This document shows, piece after piece, positions 1 through 47,825 of a stretch of 47,825 nucleotides of DNA. The DNA comes from a virus. Every line of letters begins with the position of its first letter. The stretch's first letter is position 1. The notes under the pieces were generated by a model. It was not told where the DNA came from. It saw only the letters and a list, made by a program, of their open reading frames with translations, and made no database searches. The position numbers and the translations under genes are program-made. Location: the IMG/VR virus record IMGVR_UViG_3300030399_000026; one strand, written 5' to 3'.

Positions 1-127
1 CATCGGACGGCGGGAACGGCCCGCCGTTTCGCGATCTGTGATGGACCGTACTTGCGGCGCGATAGCCTCACGGGTGGGGATGCCTTCGTGCTGGTCTTGC
101 TTGCTCATGATGGTTCCTTACTGGTAG
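1..127. repeat. Left copy of the 127-bp exact terminal direct repeat (identical to 47699-47825)
   Basis: Read directly: bases 1-127 (catcggacgg...ccttactggtag) recur verbatim as the last 127 bases. This implies a circular or terminally redundant genome with unique length 47,698 bp. Positions 1-108 duplicate the first 36 codons of the minus-strand gene annotated at 47303-47806. Confidence 0.95.
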
Positions 128-1709: not shown

Positions 1710-3861
1710 CCATCATTGAGTGGAGGATTTTGATTGCCTCCAGCGTTCCCTCTTGCTTGTTCTTCGCGGCTCCGATTTGCGCCTCAATAAGCGCAATCTG
1801 ATGCCCAGTATCCACACCCTTCGCCTCAGCAAGAGTTTGAACAACTTGTGCCTCCAAGAGTTTGATTTGGGCTTGTTGCAACTCAGCCTTGGAGACCAAG
1901 TCGAGGAGCTTGATCTTGAAGTCGAGTTGCTGCTTGGCCTGAGCCGACTGTTGCTTGAGTTGCTCGATCTGAAGCTTCGGGTTCTGCGGAGGCGGAACGG
2001 CGAACGGACCCTTAGGATCAGGTAGGAACTTGTCGATGTCAGGGACCTTCAGGGCTTGAAGGTAGTAACGATGGACTTGATAGATGTCGTAGCCTGGAGC
2101 CGCCATTGCCGCCTGCATCAGCGACGAGGCTTGGTTGTAGCGTTGGGCGTCCGACATGTAGAACGGGTCGGCGCTAGGGCGGATCGTAACCTCGGCATTC
2201 TTGTAGAGGTGCGCTGCTGCCTTAGACTGCGGCGGGGCTGACTGAGCGAAGTACGGCATGCTCTCGTCAAGGAACACGCAGTTCAGGCGGAACAGTTTGC
2301 GCAACTCCTGAGTGAAAGCCCGATGCGTCCGCTTGAAGATGCCGTTGAACACCTTCATGCCCTGCTCTACCATCGCACGGGAAGTCTCAGCCGGAGTATT
2401 CTGACCTGGGTTCTTACCTTGCAGAATGTCAACCGCACCAGCGATCTGCTGTCCATACTCGATGAGGAGGGTGAGCAGTTGGAAGAGCGACTGGTTAGGC
2501 GGTGGAGGGGGCAGAGGAACAACACTCTTCCTGATGTCATCTCCACTTCCATCAACAGTCTTCCACTCGCCGGGGCGGAAACGATACTCGCCCTTCTTAT
2601 TCTTGAACCCGCGCCCAAGGAAGCCCCCTCCAGCATTGGCAAGGGTTCCCGAATCGAGCATCTGGTTGAGCGAGGAATCAATGGCGTGATTGAGCGGCCC
2701 GAGTAGAGCACCGAATCCGAGGTCATAGAAGCCACCATCCGGCGAGGGGATGAAAGGATACTTCGTGAACATCGTCAGAGGGTTGATTCGGATGAGTTTT
2801 CCGGAGGGTAGGAAAGTAACATCCTTGCGAGTGAAACGCGGCACGATTCGCAGCACTTGGGCCGTATCATAGCGAACAGTGACGATGTATGGTTCGGCGT
2901 AGCCGTCGCCGTCCAAATCGAGCGTGCGATGTTGTTCCAGCAACTCGTATGGAGCATCGTGGTCGGCCACGACAGGCCGGATTCCTTGTCGGTCGTCGGT
3001 CTCTTCTTCGAGCATGTAGCGGAGTCGGGGCTCGGCTCGGGGGGAACCTTCTTTGAACTCGGCAAAGATTCCTCGGGCTTGGCGCTCGTAGACGGCGTTA
3101 GGGTCGAGGTAGATGATGTGGGTAAGGCGGGGGGCATGCTCAATGTCCTTGGTGTAGTAGGACACGACGATGTCCTTCGGGGAGATAAACTCCGAAACGT
3201 TGTGGCACAGGATGGGGTCGAAGTAGGACTTCTTGAAGGCGCACCCCATGATGGCTTGGGTCAAGAGCATCTTGTCGTGGTTCTCTTCCCAGGTCTCGTC
3301 CTCTTCGAGGATTTGATAAGACATGTGGTCGGCTATTTCGTTGGCCTGTTGGGTCAGGGCATCGAACTTGGCCTTGAGTTGCTGAGCTTGCTGCTGGGCT
3401 TGCTGCATAGCCTGCTGCGCCTGGGGGTCAGGCGGTTGACCCGGCTGGGCAGGAGGCATCGTAGGCAGCGTCAGCTTAGGCATTTTCTGTAGCGGACGAG
3501 CAGCGACAGGTTGTCCACCGTTGACCAGCGCGGGGTAGGCGCGAGACTGATACTGAAGGGCGGCAATAGTCAAGAGAGGGAACTTGACGTTGGCGGCATC
3601 CGGCCACGGGAAGGTCTTCTTCTCGGTGACTTGAAGGGCTAGGCGCATAGCCAACTGCATCCGCTCTTCCCATTCTTGGCGAGAGACCCGGTCGTTGTCG
3701 AAGTCCTGCTTGACCATCGCACCGAGGGTGTCGAGGTCATGCTCGTCGAAACGGTCGACGAGGTTCGAGGAGCGCATCAACTTCTCGTCGAGCGCGATGA
3801 AGTGTTCAAGGTTCCACGGAGCATTAGCCGGGGCCTGATCTTCGAAGTCAGTAACACTCAT
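1555..3861 (-). CDS. Portal protein (768 aa from ATG 3861; ORF open to 3903)
   Basis: Largest head-module ORF and next coding gene after terL. It has a Q/P-rich insertion (PPAQPGQPPDPQAQQAMQQAQQQAQQ) and a Gly-rich C-terminal tail. The call rests on size and synteny, not on a named motif. Confidence 0.7.
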   Translation of the reverse strand: MSVTDFEDQAPANAPWNLEHFIALDEKLMRSSNLVDRFDEHDLDTLGAMVKQDFDNDRVSRQEWEERMQLAMRLALQVTEKKTFPWPDAANVKFPLLTIAALQYQSRAYPALVNGGQPVAARPLQKMPKLTLPTMPPAQPGQPPDPQAQQAMQQAQQQAQQLKAKFDALTQQANEIADHMSYQILEEDETWEENHDKMLLTQAIMGCAFKKSYFDPILCHNVSEFISPKDIVVSYYTKDIEHAPRLTHIIYLDPNAVYERQARGIFAEFKEGSPRAEPRLRYMLEEETDDRQGIRPVVADHDAPYELLEQHRTLDLDGDGYAEPYIVTVRYDTAQVLRIVPRFTRKDVTFLPSGKLIRINPLTMFTKYPFIPSPDGGFYDLGFGALLGPLNHAIDSSLNQMLDSGTLANAGGGFLGRGFKNKKGEYRFRPGEWKTVDGSGDDIRKSVVPLPPPPPNQSLFQLLTLLIEYGQQIAGAVDILQGKNPGQNTPAETSRAMVEQGMKVFNGIFKRTHRAFTQELRKLFRLNCVFLDESMPYFAQSAPPQSKAAAHLYKNAEVTIRPSADPFYMSDAQRYNQASSLMQAAMAAPGYDIYQVHRYYLQALKVPDIDKFLPDPKGPFAVPPPQNPKLQIEQLKQQSAQAKQQLDFKIKLLDLVSKAELQQAQIKLLEAQVVQTLAEAKGVDTGHQIALIEAQIGAAKNKQEGTLEAIKILHSMMGGNDKESDGGKDSSGGGGGLGALLGASGATGGQGDAGAAPPGVGGGGASPF

Positions 3862-6541: not shown

Positions 6542-6619
6542 TGGTCTGGGCGGCAGGATTCGAACCTGCGACCTCCTGCTTCCAGGGCAGGTGACTTGAC
6601 CGGACTAGCCTACACCCAG
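6542..6619 (-). tRNA. tRNA, anticodon UGG (Pro) if the 7-nt loop CCUGGAA is read canonically
   Basis: The reverse complement folds as a cloverleaf. Acceptor stem is CTGGGTG/CGCCCAG with an encoded A73-CCA. The D arm is GGCT/AGTC with GG in its loop. The anticodon stem is CCTGC/GCAGG, the variable loop is AGGTC, and the T arm is GCAGG-TTCGAAT-CCTGC. C1-G72 with A73 fits bacterial tRNA-Pro identity. Positions 33 (C) and 37 (A) are atypical. Confidence 0.8.
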
Positions 6620-11490: not shown

Positions 11491-11663
11491 TGGGCTGGCT
11501 GATTGGATTGTTTGCGTCTATCGGGTTCCTGTCGAGCCTGTATGTGATCGACCGGAATACCGACCCGCTACCGGCCTGGGCCGTGCTCCTGACTGTCTCG
11601 GTACTGGGGCTGGCTTGGATAGGCGTGGCAGGGCTGGCAATGGCCGCGCTGGAGGTGTTGTGA
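11490..11663 (+). CDS. Small two-TM membrane protein (57 aa)
   Basis: TAATG overlap with the upstream gene. Product is MGWLIGLFASIGFLSSLYVIDRNTDPLPAWAVLLTVSVLGLAWIGVAGLAMAALEVL. Confidence 0.45.
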   Translation: MGWLIGLFASIGFLSSLYVIDRNTDPLPAWAVLLTVSVLGLAWIGVAGLAMAALEVL

Positions 11664-11670
11664 GGGAAGA

Positions 11671-11693
11671 AGGGGGTGATCCCCCCTCTTTTC
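11671..11693 (+). terminator. Intrinsic terminator ending the early gene block
   Basis: A GGGGG-tgat-CCCCC hairpin is followed by tcttttc, directly after the last early ORF. Confidence 0.55.
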
Positions 11694-11737
11694 GAGGTGA
11701 AAAATGAAATTTCTAAAATGCACCTTGCGCACAGTCA

Positions 11738-11914
11738 GTACAAGAGTACAAGAATACAAGTTTGGAGAAAAAGGCAGAAATCGCGAAAAAGAAAAAAGTA
11801 AGTAAGGGGGGATATTAAAAAAAAAAAAATAAATAACCTACCTTCTACACTTTTTTTTCCTTTCCAAAATCTGTCGCAATTTGCTCAAACTTGTATTCTT
11901 GTATCCTCGTATCC
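11738..11914. repeat. Inverted iteron arms flanking an AT-rich spacer (candidate origin or operator)
   Basis: The left arm is gtacaaga-gtacaaga-atacaag-tttg (11738-11764). The right arm, caaacttgtattcttgta... (11886-11903), is an 18-bp perfect inverted copy of 11747-11764. The 121-bp spacer contains A13 (11817-11829) and T8 (11851-11858). Confidence 0.6.
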
Positions 11915-12009
11915 AGCGTTGAACGCGTGCGCATGTTCGACAGCTAAAATCAATTACCAAAGTGCCTGAAGTACGTGCATAATACGAGTTCGCACCACGG
12001 AGACCCAAA

Positions 12010-13147: not shown

Positions 13148-13537
13148 ATGAACCTGTCCCTGGAACCCGATGAACTGCGCGCCGTCCTCAATGCCTGTGG
13201 CGTAGCTGTCACCGCGATTCAGGGACCGGCGCAAAACGCCCGACAACGCGACTTCCAACATGCGGTCGCAGACAACCTCGGCGCCTTCACCTCCGCTAGT
13301 CGGAAGTTGTCGGCCCTAGCTAAGAAAATGGAGCAAGGAATGGTAAGACCTTTGAGCGATAAGATTTACGTCCACGCTGCCCTCACGCCAGAAGCGCATC
13401 GTGCTCTGCACGAGACCCTCGCCCACCGCTTCAATGGCAAGGTGCCTACTGGTGCTATCGGCACTTACTTGTCGGAGTTGATCCTTAGCGATGCCGCAGA
13501 AGTTTGCGCGGATACTCTGGCCAAGGAGGACCTGTGA
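13148..13537 (+). CDS. Hypothetical protein (129 aa)
   Basis: RBS ggag plus 8 nt. Confidence 0.6.
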   Translation: MNLSLEPDELRAVLNACGVAVTAIQGPAQNARQRDFQHAVADNLGAFTSASRKLSALAKKMEQGMVRPLSDKIYVHAALTPEAHRALHETLAHRFNGKVPTGAIGTYLSELILSDAAEVCADTLAKEDL

Positions 13538-13785
13538 GCACCGACCGCAAAGACAAACTCCTCGCGGCCCTCAACGAAGCGCTCCTCGCTAACCACCTCG
13601 ATGGCGTGGGCGTGGCAATCGTGGTGGCCGACGACGAAGGGTGCCGTACCATCATCGGCAAGCGCGGCAACGCCACCAACGCCCTGATGGACTCGGCCTT
13701 AGTCTGCCTCACCGGTTCGTGGTGGCAAGTAGCCTACGAGTCGAACGGGACCGTCGAGACCATTGAGGGAGAAGTCAAGCACTAA
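13534..13785 (+). CDS. Hypothetical protein (83 aa, GTG start)
   Basis: RBS aaggagg is followed by GTGA overlapping the upstream stop. Confidence 0.5.
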   Translation: MSTDRKDKLLAALNEALLANHLDGVGVAIVVADDEGCRTIIGKRGNATNALMDSALVCLTGSWWQVAYESNGTVETIEGEVKH

Positions 13786-14146
13786 CCGTCTAAGGGGAGG
13801 CGTCGGACTCAAAGTTTCCTTAGCACGTGTGTCAGGAGACCACCGTCCCGCTAACCTCCCCGCCTATCACACCCTCGGTAGCATGCGGCGTGACGACGCA
13901 TGGCAGGGTTGCAAAGGGGAAGCCGATACCCTAGCCTCAAGCTGTCACGAGTTGAGAGGGCGAGCCGTGTCAACCACAGTCCCTGTAAAAGTCCGAGAGT
14001 TGGCGGAGATGCTCTAGCAGACAGTGAAGTCACCCCTAGTGGGTTTCAATAACGGCAATTAGGCTTCGGCCAGGATGCTAGGAGGGTGGAACGCCTACCT
14101 AGCGCCGTCATTCAAGCCCAGTAGTCTAACCAAGTAAGGAGTAGAG
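13786..14146 (+). other. 361-nt ORF-free, helix-rich gap A (candidate structured RNA or regulatory region)
   Basis: No RBS-supported ORF. Nested helices are GGGGAGG (13794)/CCTCCCC (13855), GGAC (13805)/GTCC (13846) and TTTCCT/AGGAGA. A hairpin CATGCG-gcgtgacga-CGCATG is also present. The region shares the blocks CGGACTC, AACCTCCCC, GTGACGACGC and TACCCTAGC with gap B. Confidence 0.4.
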
Positions 14147-14401
14147 ATGTCACCGAGTGAAGAGAAAGAAAGCGGCGCTTATCAAGCAATGGTCGCATTG
14201 GGGGACGCTGTCGCCCTCCTGTTGGCGTCGACCGTTCACGAGAAGAATGTGGGGGGTAAGGTTTCCGTCTCTGTAGAGGACCTCCAAGTCCTTGTCAAAG
14301 CCCTCGGCCAAGCCGCCAATGTCCTGTCTCGACTGGGTGGTGGTGGCCCTGCGGAAGATGAACTGGTCCGCCGCGTATTCGCCCCGAGGGCTGGAGAATG
14401 A
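14147..14401 (+). CDS. Hypothetical protein (84 aa)
   Basis: RBS aaggag plus 5 nt. Confidence 0.6.
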   Translation: MSPSEEKESGAYQAMVALGDAVALLLASTVHEKNVGGKVSVSVEDLQVLVKALGQAANVLSRLGGGGPAEDELVRRVFAPRAGE

Positions 14402-14625: not shown

Positions 14626-14918
14626 CCATCCCAACCCCCAATCCTGACGCCACAACCCTGGACGAGCACTTTCAGGACTACGTCAATCTGTGCCGCTACT
14701 CCCTCACCAAGCGCGGTGACGACGCAACCAAACTCGACGATCTGAAGGTCCTCTCTGGCTTGCGGGATACCTTCTCCCTTGGCTTCTTCGCGGGCGCCAA
14801 GATGGTCGCTTCGGCGGGGCGTGACGAAGCTAAGCTGGCCGCAGTTGCTCTCAACCTGCTCGAAGAACTCGAAAAGATGGGCAACGGCGGGCGCCCCCTC
14901 GGAGCGAGCCTGCAATGA
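14622..14918 (+). CDS. Hypothetical protein (98 aa)
   Basis: ATGA overlap with the upstream gene. Confidence 0.6.
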   Translation: MTIPTPNPDATTLDEHFQDYVNLCRYSLTKRGDDATKLDDLKVLSGLRDTFSLGFFAGAKMVASAGRDEAKLAAVALNLLEELEKMGNGGRPLGASLQ

Positions 14919-15382
14919 GTTATGTAGCCGGCCTTAAAGAAGACCGCTTTGAAGCTTTTGTAGAGCGAGTGCCTTTTTTAGAGTGTTGGGTGTGGATGGG
15001 GTATTTAGACAAACATGGCTATGGGTCTTTTCATTGGGAAGGCCGCAGCATAACCAAGCCTGCGTATCAAGCGGCTTGGTGGCTGTATAAAGGAAAGCCT
15101 CGGGGTGTTCTTAGGCATACTTGCGACAATCCGTGGTGTGTTAATCCCAGCCACTTACTAGAGGGTACGCAGCTAGACAACATTCAAGATATGCTTGACC
15201 GCAATCGCCAAGCTAGGGGGGAGCGCGCGGGCAGTAGTGTTTTGACCGAAGAGGAGGTGCGGGCAATTCGTAATTTGAGCGCACAGGGCGTGTCTGGCAA
15301 GGCTCTTGCAAAACAGTACGGTGTAAATGCGTCTTGCATATGCAAGATTGTGAAAGGTTATTCTTGGAAGCACTTATTATGA
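14915..15382 (+). CDS. Free-standing HNH homing-type endonuclease (155 aa)
   Basis: CWVWMGYLDKHGYGSFHWEGR...RHTCDNPWCVNPSHLLEGTQLDN is the HNH_3-type core. A C-terminal HTH-like segment (GKALAKQYGVNASCICKIVKG) follows. The gene is visibly more A/T-rich than its neighbours. Confidence 0.85.
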   Translation: MSYVAGLKEDRFEAFVERVPFLECWVWMGYLDKHGYGSFHWEGRSITKPAYQAAWWLYKGKPRGVLRHTCDNPWCVNPSHLLEGTQLDNIQDMLDRNRQARGERAGSSVLTEEEVRAIRNLSAQGVSGKALAKQYGVNASCICKIVKGYSWKHLL

Positions 15383-20762: not shown

Positions 20763-21042
20763 TGCCCGTGAGGGGCCAGCTGGTCCACTGCGGACTCTGA
20801 CAGCACCCGGAGGTGTGTGCCCCGAAACCTCCCCCCAATACCATGTCCTTACCCTAGCGGGTGACGACGCCCAGCGGGTGGTGGCGTGTAACCCCCGCAG
20901 ACGCCCTGTTTCGTGCTCCCTTCGGCAGTCGCACCTCCCCGAAGACCTCACGGCCTACTCAAGGTACAGCGAAGCGTTGACGTGAATGGAAAGGGAACGC
21001 CCACAAAATCCCTTCCACCCTATTCCCCAAGGAGCATAAAAA
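20763..21042 (+). other. 280-nt ORF-free, helix-rich gap B (candidate structured RNA or regulatory region)
   Basis: Hairpins include GGAGGT (20809)/ACCTCC (20826), GGCGT (20883)/ACGCC (20901) and GGAAAGGGA/TCCCTTCC (about 20987-21018). It shares four sequence blocks with gap A. Confidence 0.4.
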
Positions 21043-31273: not shown

Positions 31274-31555
31274 TCACTGGGACAGGAATCCAGTGTAGAT
31301 GCCCAGTTGGTGGGTGTAGGAGAGGGAGTCGGTCACCACGCCCGTTACCGTGAGGTTGCCGCCCACCGTCTCGCTGCCCGTCACGGCCAAGTTCCCCGTG
31401 ACCGTAGTCGTGGGAGGAGGCCCTGCCGAGAAGGAGATGTTGGTGGTCGCCGCCTGTACCCCCGTGATAGCCTGCCACGCTTGGTAAATCCAGTCCGTGA
31501 AACTCCCCAGTCCCGTCAACTGCTGGGTCGGTGGTTGCTGCAACGGTTGTGCCAT
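31274..31555 (-). CDS. Small fibre-like protein with TGNLxVTG repeats (93 aa from ATG 31555)
   Basis: TAATG overlap with the stop of the ATP-grasp gene. Contains VTGNLAVTGSETVGGNLTVTGVV. Confidence 0.5.
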   Translation of the reverse strand: MAQPLQQPPTQQLTGLGSFTDWIYQAWQAITGVQAATTNISFSAGPPPTTTVTGNLAVTGSETVGGNLTVTGVVTDSLSYTHQLGIYTGFLSQ

Positions 31556-32862
31556 TAGAAACTCCACTCCTTAGCAAATCCCATAGCCTTCAAATCCTTG
31601 ATATGCCCCTCACAACGATCACCAATATCATGACGATAGGCGGGACTATTAGGAATCTCCAACTGTTTAACCACACGGTACGCATCATCCTTAGCATCGC
31701 TGACAGATGCACCAGTACCAACCACAACAAGAGGCCACTCCCCCGCAGTGCAGAATAAATCTCGTGCTTCCCATTTTCCATTCTCGAAGACCTCATGCTC
31801 CTTCGCCATGACCTCCACGAGGTGGACGTTCTTCCAGTTCTTGTGGTCGATGCCGAAGAGCGGGATGCCGTCGACTTCCTCGTGGGGGATGTGGCAGTGC
31901 GGGAAGGAGGGTCCGACTATGCACACCCCGATGCAATGGTCATATGATACGCGAAGAGAGTCTTTCCCGTGGACGAGGTCGTAAATCCATGTGGCCGGGT
32001 CGCCCTTGTGGAGGTGCTGGTTCAGGTAGAAGGCGGGCCAACCGCAGCGCATGGTGAATTCCAGGGGCCACGGCACCCCTTTCTCATCGATCATCACCGA
32101 TACGTCGATGTTGCCGCAAAACTTGATGGCCTTGAGAGCTTGCTCTAAGGGGCGGAGGACCATGTCTCCAAGCGTGCTGTGGTCGACGTACTTCATTGCC
32201 GTTCCCATTTCGCCTGTATTCATTCCGATGTCGTGGGCAAAGAGCTTCTTGTGTTCGAAATTTTCTTCGGTCACGCTACTAAAGCCGTGCGGCCCAAACC
32301 ACGCACCACAGGCAAACTCCACCCCCTTCATCTTGTCCTGAAGGATGAAGTCCTGCTTAGCTGACCCATAAACCTTCTGCGCCCGCTTCATCATAGCTAC
32401 CAGATCGTCAGGCCCCTTCCCGACATAGCTAAGAGCGCGGTCAGCATCACCAATAGGCTTGCAAGCAAACTCACCGTTACTAGATTTGATATGGGCAATC
32501 GCATCATCGTAAGACGAGAAACGGGTATATGGAAGCACCTTAATGCCGTGATCCTCAAGCACCTGCTGACCCACGCACCGGTCGAGTTCCCAAGCCGCAG
32601 CGGCCTTGTTGGCCCCGAATATCGGGTAGCCCTTCGCATAATAGTCCTCCATCTCCCAGCCATACTTGGCTGATGCAGTACACATGATGAGGTCAGCCCA
32701 GCGCATCCACTGGCGCCAATCCTTAACCCGGTTCGTCAGGCCCATGCCGATGTTAGGCCGCTTACCCGGAGAGAGGTAGTGCTTAACATCATGGCCTGCC
32801 GCCTGACTCCTGACGCAGAAGTCCACCCCCGTCCCATACACATCAATCATTAGAATCTTCAT
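31555..32862 (-). CDS. PurD-like (phosphoribosylamine-glycine ligase family) ATP-grasp enzyme, diverged (435 aa)
   Basis: Collinear with PurD by eye. [12 protein letters not shown] matches [40 protein letters not shown] matches [47 protein letters not shown] matches [32 protein letters not shown] matches VIEFNCRFGDPE. The C-terminal [20 protein letters not shown]...RHDIGDR matches VTALGHTVAEAQKRAY...RKDIGWR. It has an ATGA overlap with the upstream internal-protein gene. Confidence 0.75.
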   Translation of the reverse strand: [435 protein letters not shown]

Positions 32863-47302: not shown

Positions 47303-47806
47303 TTATGAAGTCGTCGAGCCGTAGTCGATGCCACTTTTCGGAATGTAGGCACCTTCCACCGGCGTAGTCGTTCCCGTTCGAATGGCCTTGTCGATTGCTG
47401 CGGCCCGCTTCTGGTAGAACGCATCGTTCTCGTTCTTCCATTCCTGCTTGATCTTCATCAAGTAGGCTACCAGCGGCCCGCCCTGTTCGGTGTGCCCTAC
47501 GATACGGCTAACTCGGTCGCCGGAGTCAGCGCTTGCAGCGCCCATTCCCGGCTCTATCTCGACTTCACTCTGGGAGACGAACTCGTATCCGTTAGCCAGG
47601 GCCTCATTCACCCTATTGGGATAGTCGTTGATCCAGTGGCAGTATAACCCACTTGCCATAAGTTTGCTGCAATCGACACCAAGCTTCGATCCGCCGAGCA
47701 TCGGACGGCGGGAACGGCCCGCCGTTTCGCGATCTGTGATGGACCGTACTTGCGGCGCGATAGCCTCACGGGTGGGGATGCCTTCGTGCTGGTCTTGCTT
47801 GCTCAT
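47303..47806 (-). CDS. Head-module protein of unknown role (167 aa)
   Basis: Clean ORF. Its start lies inside the terminal repeat, and it follows the scaffold-like gene across the circular junction. Confidence 0.55.
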   Translation of the reverse strand: MSKQDQHEGIPTREAIAPQVRSITDRETAGRSRRPMLGGSKLGVDCSKLMASGLYCHWINDYPNRVNEALANGYEFVSQSEVEIEPGMGAASADSGDRVSRIVGHTEQGGPLVAYLMKIKQEWKNENDAFYQKRAAAIDKAIRTGTTTPVEGAYIPKSGIDYGSTTS

Positions 47807-47825
47807 GATGGTTCCTTACTGGTAG
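47699..47825. repeat. Right copy of the 127-bp exact terminal direct repeat
   Basis: Identical to 1-127 by direct comparison. Confidence 0.95.

What the first reader, a model, noticed from the sequence alone, without database searches (positions are those of the whole stretch)
13786..14146. 361-nt ORF-free, multi-helix gap A: candidate novel structured RNA in a ribozyme-bearing phage
In an operon where genes overlap by 1-4 nt, this 361-nt stretch has no RBS-supported ORF. It does contain a stack of nested helices: GGGGAGG/CCTCCCC enclosing GGAC/GTCC enclosing TTTCCT/AGGAGA. Further hairpins follow, such as CATGCG-gcGTGACGA-CGCATG and CACCCT...AGGGT. It shares four sequence blocks with the second large gap at 20763-21042. 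Established knowledge: twister-sister, pistol and hatchet ribozymes were found by searching the neighbourhoods of hammerhead and twister ribozymes in phage-like DNA. A long structured gap in a genome with three hammerheads is therefore a rational place to look for another, possibly new, self-cleaving or regulatory RNA. I could not match it to a known class by eye.
Basis: partly seen in the sequence, partly recalled or inferred. Interest (0 to 1): 0.65.

Follow-up and report, generated by a model that had tools for sequence, protein, structure and literature searches.

The report
New pseudoknotted phage leader RNA family
The 361-base gap encodes a real, conserved, pseudoknotted RNA that matches no known RNA family and recurs in several unrelated uncultured phages just upstream of early or replication genes, but what it does is unknown and the phage has no hammerhead ribozymes.

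Summary
Gap A (13786-14146, + strand) has three RNA modules: a 5' rod hairpin (13794-13861), a central pseudoknotted core (13868-14029) and a 3' branched rod (14036-14124).

I found the core in seven distinct sequences from at least three unrelated uncultured phage groups. On a hand-curated alignment, 198 of 198 cells pair and 25 of 37 pairs show changes on both sides. No shuffle out of 500 matched this, and slid controls paired at 48% or less. A long-range helix (13941-46 with 14020-25) shows four different Watson-Crick pairs at one position. Invariant G.U pairs identify the + strand as RNA.

Rfam 15 gives no hit, even at E<=10.

The window has no hammerhead. Similarity to gap B is at chance level.

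In the Ro60-carrying relatives (L113, L114, L120, L121) the syntenic site holds Y-RNA-like modules and tRNA-like units; L109 and L113 also hold tRNA genes there. The core sits inside such an array in L114 and L121. This phage has no Ro60.

In all seven cases the core is co-oriented with an ORF and 31-194 nt upstream of it.

Best guess for function is a cis-acting regulatory leader (about 0.4). Rivals are a trans-acting small RNA (about 0.3) and a new ribozyme (about 0.08).

The parts
13794..13861 (+). Module 1: 68-nt rod hairpin directly after the stop codon of gene 13534-13785. Helices are GGGGAGG/CCUCCCC, GU/GC, GGAC/GUCC and (G)UUUCCU/AGGAGA(C). The apical loop UAGCACGUGUGUC is conserved, and the 3' half carries the motif CCGUCCCGCUAAC.
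   Evidence: MFE fold. In L097 the helices change to GCCGGGG/CCCCGGC, GGC/GCC and UCAC/GUGA while the loop stays the same. L116 keeps the same outer helices around a different apical insert and has no core. A CCGUCYC motif inside a long hairpin follows the 133-aa gene in L114, L120, L121, L123 and L125. No T-run follows, and the terminator scan is negative.
13868..14029 (+). Module 2: the core, a member of the new pseudoknotted RNA family (162 nt here, 85-158 nt elsewhere).
   Evidence: Seven distinct members: window; L097 9518-9654; L114 6631-6749; L121 1941-2065; L110 5813-5953; L132 2147-2231(-); L145 5336-5493. They were found with nhmmer and covariance model R1. There is no Rfam match.
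13871..13909 (+). Pa (ACCCU 13871-75 with AGGGU 13905-09) encloses the internal loop CGGUAG/GC and hairpin Pb (CAUGCG 13882-87 with CGCAUG 13897-902).
   Evidence: Pa variants are ACCCU/AGGGU, ACUCU/AGAGU, UCUCU/AGAGA and AGCCU/GGGCU. Pb variants are CAUGCG/CGCAUG, GCCCU/GGGGC, CCCCACG/CGUGGGG and GUGC/GCAC (helices 1 and 2).
13915..13932 (+). Pc hairpin: AGGG 13915-18 with CCCU 13929-32, loop GAAGCCGAUA. The loop's CCGA may pair with UCGG 13875-78; this is untested.
   Evidence: Pc variants are AGGG/CCCU, CUUCGC/GCGAAG (L110), GAAGC/GCUUC (L132) and GCGUCAC/GUGACGC (L145) (helix 3). The block GUUGCAAAGGGGAAGCCGAUACCCUAGCC is identical in the window, L097 and L114, and L121 differs from it at one base (GAUGCAAAGG).
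13936..13951 (+). Pd: CUC 13936-38 with GAG 13949-51. Its loop AA-GCUGUC-AC carries the 5' strand of the pseudoknot helix Pk (13941-46).
   Evidence: Pd changes from CUC/GAG to CAC/GUG in L114 and L121. The unpaired AA and AC are invariant in all seven members.
13957..14015 (+). Pe (AGGGCG 13957-62 with UGCUCU 14010-15) encloses the variable hairpin Pf (CCG 13965-67 with CGG 14004-06; a 36-nt apical part is specific to the window).
   Evidence: Pe variants are AGGGCG/UGCUCU, UGGGUC/GACUCA, AGGGUC/GACUCU, GGGGUG/UACUUC, UGGCC/GGUCA and UGCU/AGCA. A G.U pair is kept in 6 of 7 members (helix 6).
14020..14025 (+). Pk 3' strand, GACAGU. It pairs with GCUGUC 13941-46 and is preceded by the near-invariant AGCA at 14016-19.
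   Evidence: Pk variants are GCUGUC/GACAGU, GCAGUC/GACUGU, GCCGUU/AACGGU, GCCAUC/GAUGGU and GCGGUC/GACCGU. One position shows UA, CG, AU and GC. The terminal G.U is invariant in all seven members (helix 5).
14036..14124 (+). Module 3: a branched rod. CUAGUGGGUUU pairs with AAGCCCAGUAG, and ACGGC with GCCGU, closing a three-way junction. The junction holds a GGC-UUCG-GCC hairpin and a GCUAGG...CCUAGC hairpin.
   Evidence: RNAalifold of the window with L097: CUAGG/CCUAG becomes CUUCC/GGAAG (three double changes). The UUCG hairpin is replaced by UCUCGU-AGGG-ACGAGA. The internal-loop mismatches change. An analogous long rod follows the core in L132 (15-bp stem, z = -2.9, then UCUUAUUUAUU) and in L110.
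14136..14149 (+). Shine-Dalgarno AAGGAG (14136-41) and the ATG (14147) of the downstream 84-aa orphan gene. Both are conserved in L097 and are not part of any predicted helix.
   Evidence: The protein has no relative among 5.8 billion proteins.

Best explanation
Gap A is transcribed on the + strand together with its flanking genes and folds into three RNA modules.

The central module (13868-14029) belongs to a phage RNA family that, as far as I can check, has not been described. It has seven helices (Pa, Pb, Pc, Pd, Pe, Pf, Pk). One is a hairpin-type pseudoknot: the loop of Pd (GCUGUC) pairs with GACAGU located 3' of an embedded hairpin. The junction nucleotides are highly conserved.

What is shown (probability about 0.9 or higher): conservation, compensatory base changes, strand, absence of a reading frame, absence from Rfam, and recurrence in unrelated phages.

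What is inferred (probability about 0.4): function. I think it most likely acts in cis as a sensing or regulatory leader. On this view the compact pseudoknotted domain folds as it is transcribed and binds a small molecule or a protein. That binding then sets the fate of the transcript, through the stable rod that follows the domain (termination, read-through or stability), and so controls expression of the early or replication genes downstream.
For: A real structured RNA:
- Window versus L097: a 63-nt block is identical and the core is 89% identical, while the adjacent genes are 63-81% identical. Indels of 53 and 25 nt rule out a shared frame.
- The core is 88% identical over 58 nt in L095/L114, whose flanking proteins are only 38-46% identical.
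- The model built without L110, L132 and L145 finds all three. L110 is found at exactly the hand-defined coordinates, at E 5e-4 to 0.04.
- 198 of 198 cells pair. 25 of 37 pairs show double changes. 0 of 500 shuffles match. Slid controls pair at 48% or less.
- Invariant G.U pairs would be C.A mismatches on the other strand.

A new family:
- No Rfam hit in 13700-14250 at E<=10.
- No tRNA or tmRNA there.
- No match in 50,697 GenBank phage records.

A leader role:
- In 7 of 7 members the core is co-oriented with the next ORF and ends 31-194 nt upstream of it.
- In L145 it lies in the divergent region between a primase-helicase gene and a gene pair that includes DNA polymerase A.
- In L132 it follows a TTGACA-N15-GATAAT site that I identified by eye. 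It precedes a 15-bp hairpin with a U-rich tail and then the first gene.
- The window has no promoter or terminator in the gap, so the RNA is part of the operon transcript.
Against: - The downstream genes are not conserved and are mostly orphans. This is unlike typical riboswitches.
- In L114 and L121 the core is separated from the next ORF by other small-RNA modules (a Y-like unit, a tRNA) and sits within an array of stable RNAs. That fits a stand-alone RNA.
- No alternative pairing of the terminator/antiterminator or SD-sequestering type could be shown.
- The scan tool called neither the L132 promoter nor its terminator.
- There are only seven sequences, and two pairs of them are close relatives.
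- Hairpins Pb, Pc and Pf were aligned by hand on their stems, which inflates their counts. Pa, Pd, Pk and Pe sit at fixed offsets from invariant blocks and do not have this problem.
Confidence: 0.45

Rival explanations
1. It is a trans-acting, stable small RNA. It would be cut out of the polycistronic transcript like the tRNAs and Y RNAs that occupy the same site in relatives. It would then bind or decoy a host or phage protein, for example as a Ro60/PNPase-type cofactor or as a counter-defence decoy.
For: - The syntenic site is a hotspot for stable-RNA cargo. It holds tRNAs in L109 and L113 and sub-threshold YrlA matches in L113 and L114. L113, L114 and L120 have a Ro60 gene (TROVE domain) just downstream, and L121 has a cut-off ORF there.
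- In L114 and L121 the core lies between Y-like modules.
- In L132 the layout promoter, RNA, hairpin plus U-tail also fits a small-RNA gene.
- Phage Ro60 with Y-RNA-like RNAs upstream is documented and is proposed to hijack host PNPase (PMC12135203; PMC4201824).
Against: - The complete window genome has no Ro60.
- No Ro-binding stem of the kind seen in the neighbouring Y modules (UGAAG / CUUGUU) closes the core.
- The YrlA model does not match the window at all.
- The core is present without any Ro60 match in the stretches of L097, L110, L132 and L145 that were fetched.
Confidence: 0.3
2. It is a new class of self-cleaving ribozyme that processes the operon transcript.
For: - The universally conserved unit is small: 46 nt in L145, CUCAAGCGGUCACGAGAAUAAGUGCUAGGGCGAGCAAGCAGACCGU.
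- It is pseudoknotted and has invariant unpaired nucleotides (AA, AC, AGCA). This is the style of twister, pistol and hatchet (the comparison is from memory).
- It lies between genes or RNA modules that may need to be separated from one another.
Against: - No known ribozyme model matches.
- There are no hammerheads nearby, so the 'ribozyme neighbourhood' argument fails.
- Nothing marks a cleavage site.
- Most newly found structured motifs are not ribozymes (prior expectation, my own judgement).
Confidence: 0.08
3. It is an RNA processing or stability element. It could be a set of RNase III or RNase E sites, or an exonuclease-blocking fold, that sets the differential stability of upstream and downstream messages.
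For: Modules 1 and 3 are long, imperfect rods of about 20 bp placed between genes. They resemble the RNase III sites of T7-like phages (from my own knowledge). A compact pseudoknot could block exonucleases.
Against: Simple processing sites do not need a seven-helix fold with invariant junction nucleotides kept across unrelated phages.
Confidence: 0.08
4. It is a replication element: a structured primer or origin transcript, or a single-stranded-DNA fold at an origin.
For: It always lies at the head of, or next to, replication genes. In L145 it lies between divergent primase-helicase and DNA polymerase A genes.
Against: - There are no iterons or AT-rich unwinding sequence in the gap. The window's AT-rich repeat region is at 11600-12000.
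- Invariant G.U pairs and a pseudoknot favour RNA.
- L132 has no replication genes nearby.
Confidence: 0.04

Closest known systems
Bacterial and phage Y RNAs (YrlA, Rfam RF02553; phage phiLo Yrl1/Yrl2 with phiRo60)
   Same: - The core occupies the same genomic slot as Y-RNA-like modules in relatives L113, L114, L120 and L121. In L114 and L121 it sits inside such an array, upstream of the Ro60 gene in L114 and of a cut-off ORF in L121.
- It is co-transcribed with neighbouring genes.
- It is modular, with rod-like stems.
   Different: - The YrlA model does not match the window.
- There is no T-arm or D-arm mimic.
- There is no Ro-binding terminal stem.
- The genome has no Ro60 gene.
- The core has a pseudoknot, which Y RNAs lack (PMC4201824).
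Pseudoknotted riboswitch aptamers with an embedded hairpin (for example preQ1-II; comparison from memory)
   Same: - The topology is the same: the hairpin loop pairs with a 3' segment, and an extra hairpin is nested between them.
- The junction nucleotides are conserved.
- It sits in a leader, upstream of a co-oriented ORF.
   Different: - There is no sequence or model match.
- The pseudoknot does not include the SD.
- The downstream genes are unrelated orphans.
- No ligand is known.
- Extra 5' helices (Pa, Pb, Pc) are present.
Small self-cleaving ribozymes found in phage-like DNA (hammerhead, twister, pistol, hatchet)
   Same: Small size, a pseudoknot, conserved unpaired nucleotides and occurrence in phage DNA.
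   Different: No model matches, there is no hammerhead core, and the order of helices differs from pistol (from memory). Cleavage is untested.
Phage cis-acting leader RNAs (HK022 put antitermination RNA; the T4 gene 32 leader pseudoknot)
   Same: A structured element just downstream of an early promoter (L132) or ahead of replication genes (L145, window). It could act on RNA polymerase or on translation (from my own knowledge; gene 32 is mentioned in PMC10690425).
   Different: There is no sequence similarity. The put RNAs are two stem-loops without this pseudoknot. The gene 32 operator precedes one particular conserved gene, which is not the case here.

Membership tests
Hammerhead ribozyme | Three-way junction with the conserved core CUGAUGA ... 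GAAA; a match to the Rfam hammerhead models | tested here: not met
   No hammerhead anywhere in the window at gathering score or at E<=5. None in 13700-14250 at E<=10. The pattern CTGATGA-N6-36-CGAAAC gives 0 matches.
Other known self-cleaving ribozymes (twister, twister-sister, pistol, hatchet, HDV-like, glmS and the rest in Rfam 15) | Match to the family covariance model | tested here: not met
   cmscan of 13700-14250, both strands, all 4227 families, E<=10: 0 matches.
Self-cleaving ribozyme (any class, including a new one) | Site-specific self-scission of the transcript | not testable with these tools
   This needs in-vitro transcription and a cleavage assay.
Y RNA / YrlA | Match to RF02553, with tRNA-like T and D arms | tested here: not met
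   No match in the window. ARAGORN finds only tRNA-Pro at 6542-6619. Neighbouring modules in relatives do score (L114 43.5 bits, L113 39 bits; gathering score 69).
Y RNA / YrlA | Encoded next to a Ro60 (TROVE) gene | tested here: not met
   tblastn of the L113 and L114 Ro60 proteins finds nothing in the window or in any other locus held at that point, including L097 and L110. The feature is met for the core copy in L114. In L121 the ORF that follows the array is cut off and was not searched.
Y RNA / YrlA | 5' and 3' ends form the bulged Ro-binding stem | tested here: inconclusive
   By eye, the Y-like modules of L114 and L121 have GUUUGCGUGCUGAAGA... / ...CGCUUGUUGCCGCAA stems. I found no equivalent stem closing the core or module 3 of the window. 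MAFFT and RNAalifold could not align module 3 to these modules.
Riboswitch (generic) | Conserved aptamer with covarying helices and conserved junctions | tested here: met
Riboswitch (generic) | Located in the 5' leader of a co-oriented gene | tested here: met
   Met in 7 of 7 members, 31-194 nt upstream of the next ORF.
Riboswitch (generic) | Expression platform (terminator/antiterminator or SD sequestration) overlapping the aptamer | tested here: inconclusive
   L132 has a 15-bp hairpin followed by UCUUAUUUAUU after the core, but the scan tool calls no terminator. The window has no T-run and its SD is unpaired. I found no mutually exclusive pairing.
Riboswitch (generic) | Association with functionally related downstream genes; ligand binding | tested here: not met
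   The downstream genes are unrelated orphans. Ligand binding cannot be tested here.
Group I intron, tmRNA, RNase P RNA, 6S RNA | Match to the Rfam model or to ARAGORN | tested here: not met
Intrinsic terminator or sigma-70 promoter region | GC hairpin plus a T-run, or -35/-10 hexamers | tested here: not met
   Neither occurs in 13786-14146.

The most novel reading that the evidence does not exclude
The core is a new class of ligand-sensing riboswitch or self-cleaving ribozyme. Phages would carry it at the head of their early or replication operons. The ligand could be, for example, a nucleotide pool or a nucleotide second messenger made during infection. The universal unit is a pseudoknot of about 46-60 nt (C[U/A]C-AA-GCNNUY-AC-G[A/U]G ... 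hairpin ... AGCA-RANNGU).
Probability: 0.25. Interest if true: 0.85.

Novelty: categorically new. Interest (0 to 1): 0.68.

Why it matters
Phage genomes are a proven source of new RNA classes, and very few phage-specific structured RNAs have known functions. This one has a complex, pseudoknotted, covariation-supported fold. It recurs in unrelated phages at the head of early or replication gene clusters. In some relatives it is embedded in Ro60/Y-RNA arrays.

The alignment is small but clean, and the minimal unit is short. That makes the element directly testable by cleavage assays, in-line probing and pull-downs.

If it senses a ligand or a host factor, it would reveal a new way in which phages time replication-gene expression or interact with host RNA metabolism or defence.

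It is 'new' at the level of RNA family. Whether the mechanism is also new is unknown. I could not check whether it is among the 8,495 unnamed candidates of PMC10690425.

Tried and rejected
1. Homology between gap A and gap B: chance level, and no second copy by nhmmer or the covariance model.
2. Hammerheads or any known family: none.
3. A coding explanation: the ORFs in the gap have no RBS, no family hit and no conserved frame.
4. Relatives found through the flanking orphan proteins: none.
5. Near-identical metagenome copies (L003-6, L087-89): identical across the gap, so uninformative.
6. Relatives found through the PD-(D/E)XK exonuclease (82 loci in all: L001-2 and L007-86; of the 80 metagenome loci L007-86, 45-69% aa identity): none has the RNA, and the closest long contig, L007, has no gap there.
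7. Exact k-mer scans: the 17-mer and 16-mer hits other than L095 were chance. The GTDB genome scans gave only chance hits. The gapped pattern hit a glutaredoxin-like phage gene 18 times, and the model rejects those hits.
8. My first structural ideas that I dropped:
   - a closing helix UACCGU/ACGGUA in L114, dropped because the same bases form Pk in all members;
   - CCUC/GAGG as an extension of Pd, contradicted by L121;
   - pairing of AGGGU 13905-09 with ACCCU 13928-32 (the MFE fold), rejected because the G-to-A change covaries with the 5' ACCCU instead.
9. Automatic alignment of module 3 to the Y-like modules of L113 and L114: it failed, so that homology remains an impression by eye.
10. 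GenBank phages: no match.
11. Supplementary models of PMC10690425: not held in the library.

Full report
**1. The observation**

The window is a complete, circularly permuted phage-like genome (1-127 equals 47699-47825). It has a portal, a terminase, DNA polymerase A, a primase, a Sak4-like protein, a PD-(D/E)XK exonuclease and a polynucleotide-kinase-like phosphatase.

Gap A runs from the stop codon at 13783-85 of an 83-aa orphan gene to the ATG at 14147 of an 84-aa orphan gene (SD AAGGAG at 14136-41).

The thermodynamic signal for the whole gap is weak (z = -1.5 on both strands).

Two supporting statements fail:
- Similarity to gap B is at chance level. The best local score of 23 is reached by 44 of 500 shuffles and by 49 of 646 genomic chunks.
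- The genome has no hammerhead. Rfam finds only tRNA-Pro 6542-6619(-) at gathering score and at E<=5. ARAGORN agrees. A hammerhead core pattern gives 0 matches.

**2. Finding relatives**

Several routes gave nothing useful:
- The flanking proteins are orphans.
- Many metagenomes hold the same phage, but the gap is identical in them.
- Eighty loci that encode relatives of the exonuclease lack the element.

The breakthrough came from a 90%-cluster variant of the 75-aa protein. Its contig (L090/L097, Logan SRR29078160) is a moderately diverged relative. Its flanking genes are 63-81% identical at the nucleotide level, and it has a homologous gap.

In that gap:
- A 63-nt block is identical.
- The core is 89% identical over aligned columns.
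- Indels of 53 and 25 nt exclude a shared reading frame.
The UUCG hairpin is replaced by a different hairpin. RNAalifold counts 8 pairs with double changes.

Further members came from four sources:
- An exact 17-mer from the invariant block found L095/L114 in IMG/VR. This is a distant relative with syntenic genes at 38-46% aa identity.
- A profile of the conserved 161-aa protein gave more relatives. Among them, L121 carries the core. L110 carries a diverged copy, first seen as a weak nhmmer hit.
- A covariance model built from four sequences (R1) then found L110 independently, at exactly the hand-defined coordinates (26.5 bits, E 5e-4 in 674 kb).
- Pattern scans followed by the model added two members from unrelated phages: L132 (38% GC, 30.1 bits) and L145 (48% GC, 17.4 bits).

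Scans of GTDB genomes and of GenBank phages gave nothing real.

**3. Structure of the core**

I aligned the seven distinct sequences by hand and checked the alignment against the source DNA. I passed it to the tools with N padding so that it stayed in register.

The proposed fold, in window coordinates, is:

| Helix | 5' strand | 3' strand | Note |
|---|---|---|---|
| Pa | 13871-75 | 13905-09 | encloses Pb |
| Pb | 13882-87 | 13897-902 | hairpin |
| Pc | 13915-18 | 13929-32 | loop GAAGCCGAUA |
| Pd | 13936-38 | 13949-51 | its loop carries Pk 5' |
| Pk | 13941-46 | 14020-25 | pseudoknot relative to Pd |
| Pe | 13957-62 | 14010-15 | encloses Pf |
| Pf | 13965-67 | 14004-06 | variable hairpin |

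Pair counts (the five-sequence version is):
- 198 of 198 cells form standard pairs.
- 25 of 37 pairs have changes on both sides.
- None of 500 column shuffles reaches any of the measures.
- Sliding the 3' partners by 1-3 columns gives 34-48% pairing and at most 6 covarying pairs.

Pk is decisive. It reads GCUGUC/GACAGU, GCAGUC/GACUGU, GCCGUU/AACGGU, GCCAUC/GAUGGU and GCGGUC/GACCGU. It lies at fixed distances from invariant nucleotides, so alignment freedom plays no part. Pa, Pd and Pe are equally well anchored. Pb, Pc and Pf are hairpins that I aligned on their stems, so their counts lean towards the structure. Even so, each takes three or four unrelated sequences at the same position.

G.U pairs fix the + strand as the folded strand and favour RNA. 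One is invariant in all seven members and another is present in six of seven.

The unpaired nucleotides AA, AC and AGCA and the last A of the Pc loop are invariant or nearly so. UCGG 13875-78 could pair with CCGA in the Pc loop. The one change seen there is compatible with that pairing, but there is no covariation.

The universal unit is about 46 nt in L145.

**4. The other two modules**

Module 1 (13794-13861) is a rod hairpin directly after the stop codon.
- Its outer helices covary with L097.
- L116 has the same outer helices around a different apical insert and has no core.
- A long hairpin that contains CCGUCYC follows the homologous 133-aa gene in most relatives.

Module 3 (14036-14124) is a branched rod.
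- It covaries with L097.
- Analogous rods follow the core in L132 (15-bp stem, z = -2.9, then a U-rich tail) and in L110.
- By eye it resembles the last Y-like module of L113 and L114. Automatic alignment failed, so I do not claim that homology.

**5. Context**

The site after the 161-aa and 133-aa gene pair is non-coding in all relatives, and it is a hotspot for small-RNA cargo:
- tRNA genes in L109 and L113;
- arrays of Y-RNA-like modules, of which one per locus gives a sub-threshold Rfam YrlA match (L114 43.5 bits, L113 39 bits);
- CCA-ended tRNA-like units.

In L113, L114 and L120 a Ro60 orthologue (TROVE domain; L114 also a weak, sub-threshold vWA_Ro60 match) lies immediately downstream. 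In L121 a cut-off ORF lies there.

This matches published phage and bacterial Ro60/Y-RNA loci (PMC4201824; PMC12135203).

The core lies inside such arrays in L114 and L121. However, the window genome has no Ro60, and no Ro60 match was found in L097 or L110. L132 and L145 were fetched after that search, and only their ORFs next to the core were examined.

In all seven members the core is co-oriented with the next ORF and ends 31-194 nt upstream of it. The downstream genes are unrelated.
- In L145 it sits between divergent primase-helicase and DNA polymerase A genes.
- In L132 it follows a promoter that I identified by eye and precedes a terminator-like rod and the first gene. The scan tool flagged neither of these.
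- The window gap has neither a promoter nor a terminator.

**6. Interpretation**

What is shown: gap A encodes a conserved, + strand, non-coding, pseudoknotted RNA of a family absent from Rfam 15 and from GenBank phages.

What is inferred: its function.
- I favour a cis-acting sensing or regulatory leader (about 0.4). The reasons are its constant position ahead of ORFs, its aptamer-like architecture and the rod that follows it.
- The main rival is a trans-acting stable small RNA like its neighbours in relatives (about 0.3).
- Processing or stability elements and replication elements are minor rivals.

**7. Novelty and limits**

This is a new RNA family as far as I can test.

Limits:
- There are only seven sequences, and two pairs of them are close relatives.
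- The alignment is hand-made.
- No expression data are available.
- The large unnamed candidate set of PMC10690425 could not be consulted.

Gap B is separately conserved in L097 and deserves its own look.

Noticed in passing
window 20763-21041 (gap B); L097 15964-16223: Gap B is not related to gap A but is itself conserved in the relative (about 81% identity). It has a nearly 100-nt invariant 3' block and predicted hairpins. It could be a second non-coding RNA or a regulatory region. Rfam finds nothing there.
   Followed up: partly
L113 6016-6934; L114 5890-6935; L120 1464-2306; L121 1469-2258: Relatives carry arrays of Y-RNA-like modules (stems GUUUGCGUGCUGAAGA... / ...CGCUUGUUGCCGCAA), tRNAs and CCA-ended tRNA-like units. 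In L113, L114 and L120 the array lies upstream of a phage Ro60 (TROVE) gene. In L113 and L114 only one module per locus reaches even a sub-threshold YrlA score, so these arrays contain Y-RNA variants that the Rfam model does not cover.
   Followed up: partly
window 13794-13861; L097 9395-9456; L116 about 3240-3365; L123 about 1175-1255: A long hairpin carrying an internal CCGUCYC(GCUAA) motif directly follows the conserved 133-aa gene in nearly all members of this phage group, whatever RNA cargo comes after it. It may be a conserved processing or termination signal.
   Followed up: partly
window 1-127 and 47699-47825: An exact 127-nt terminal direct repeat. The window is a complete, circularly assembled genome of about 47.7 kb.
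   Followed up: yes
window 11600-12000: The only AT-rich stretch (44% GC against about 57%). It has a 59-nt imperfect inverted repeat (11739-11797 / 11853-11911), a terminator-like hairpin at 11672-85 and a promoter-like site at 11954-83. It is probably the early promoter or origin region that heads the operon containing gap A.
   Followed up: no
window 14915-15382: A free-standing HNH endonuclease gene with an HTH tail lies between orphan genes and the PD-(D/E)XK exonuclease. It is absent at this place in L097, which suggests a mobile insertion.
   Followed up: no
window 31555-32862 (-): A 434-aa protein with ATP-grasp (GARS_A/GARS_C-like) domains sits among the structural genes. This is unusual for a podovirus-like virion module.
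   Followed up: no
L133-L144 and L146-L151: The gapped pattern CAAGCNGTCACGAG...AGCAGAC hit a glutaredoxin-like gene of one phage group 18 times. This shows how one chance match is multiplied by relatedness. The covariance model rejects these hits.
   Followed up: yes
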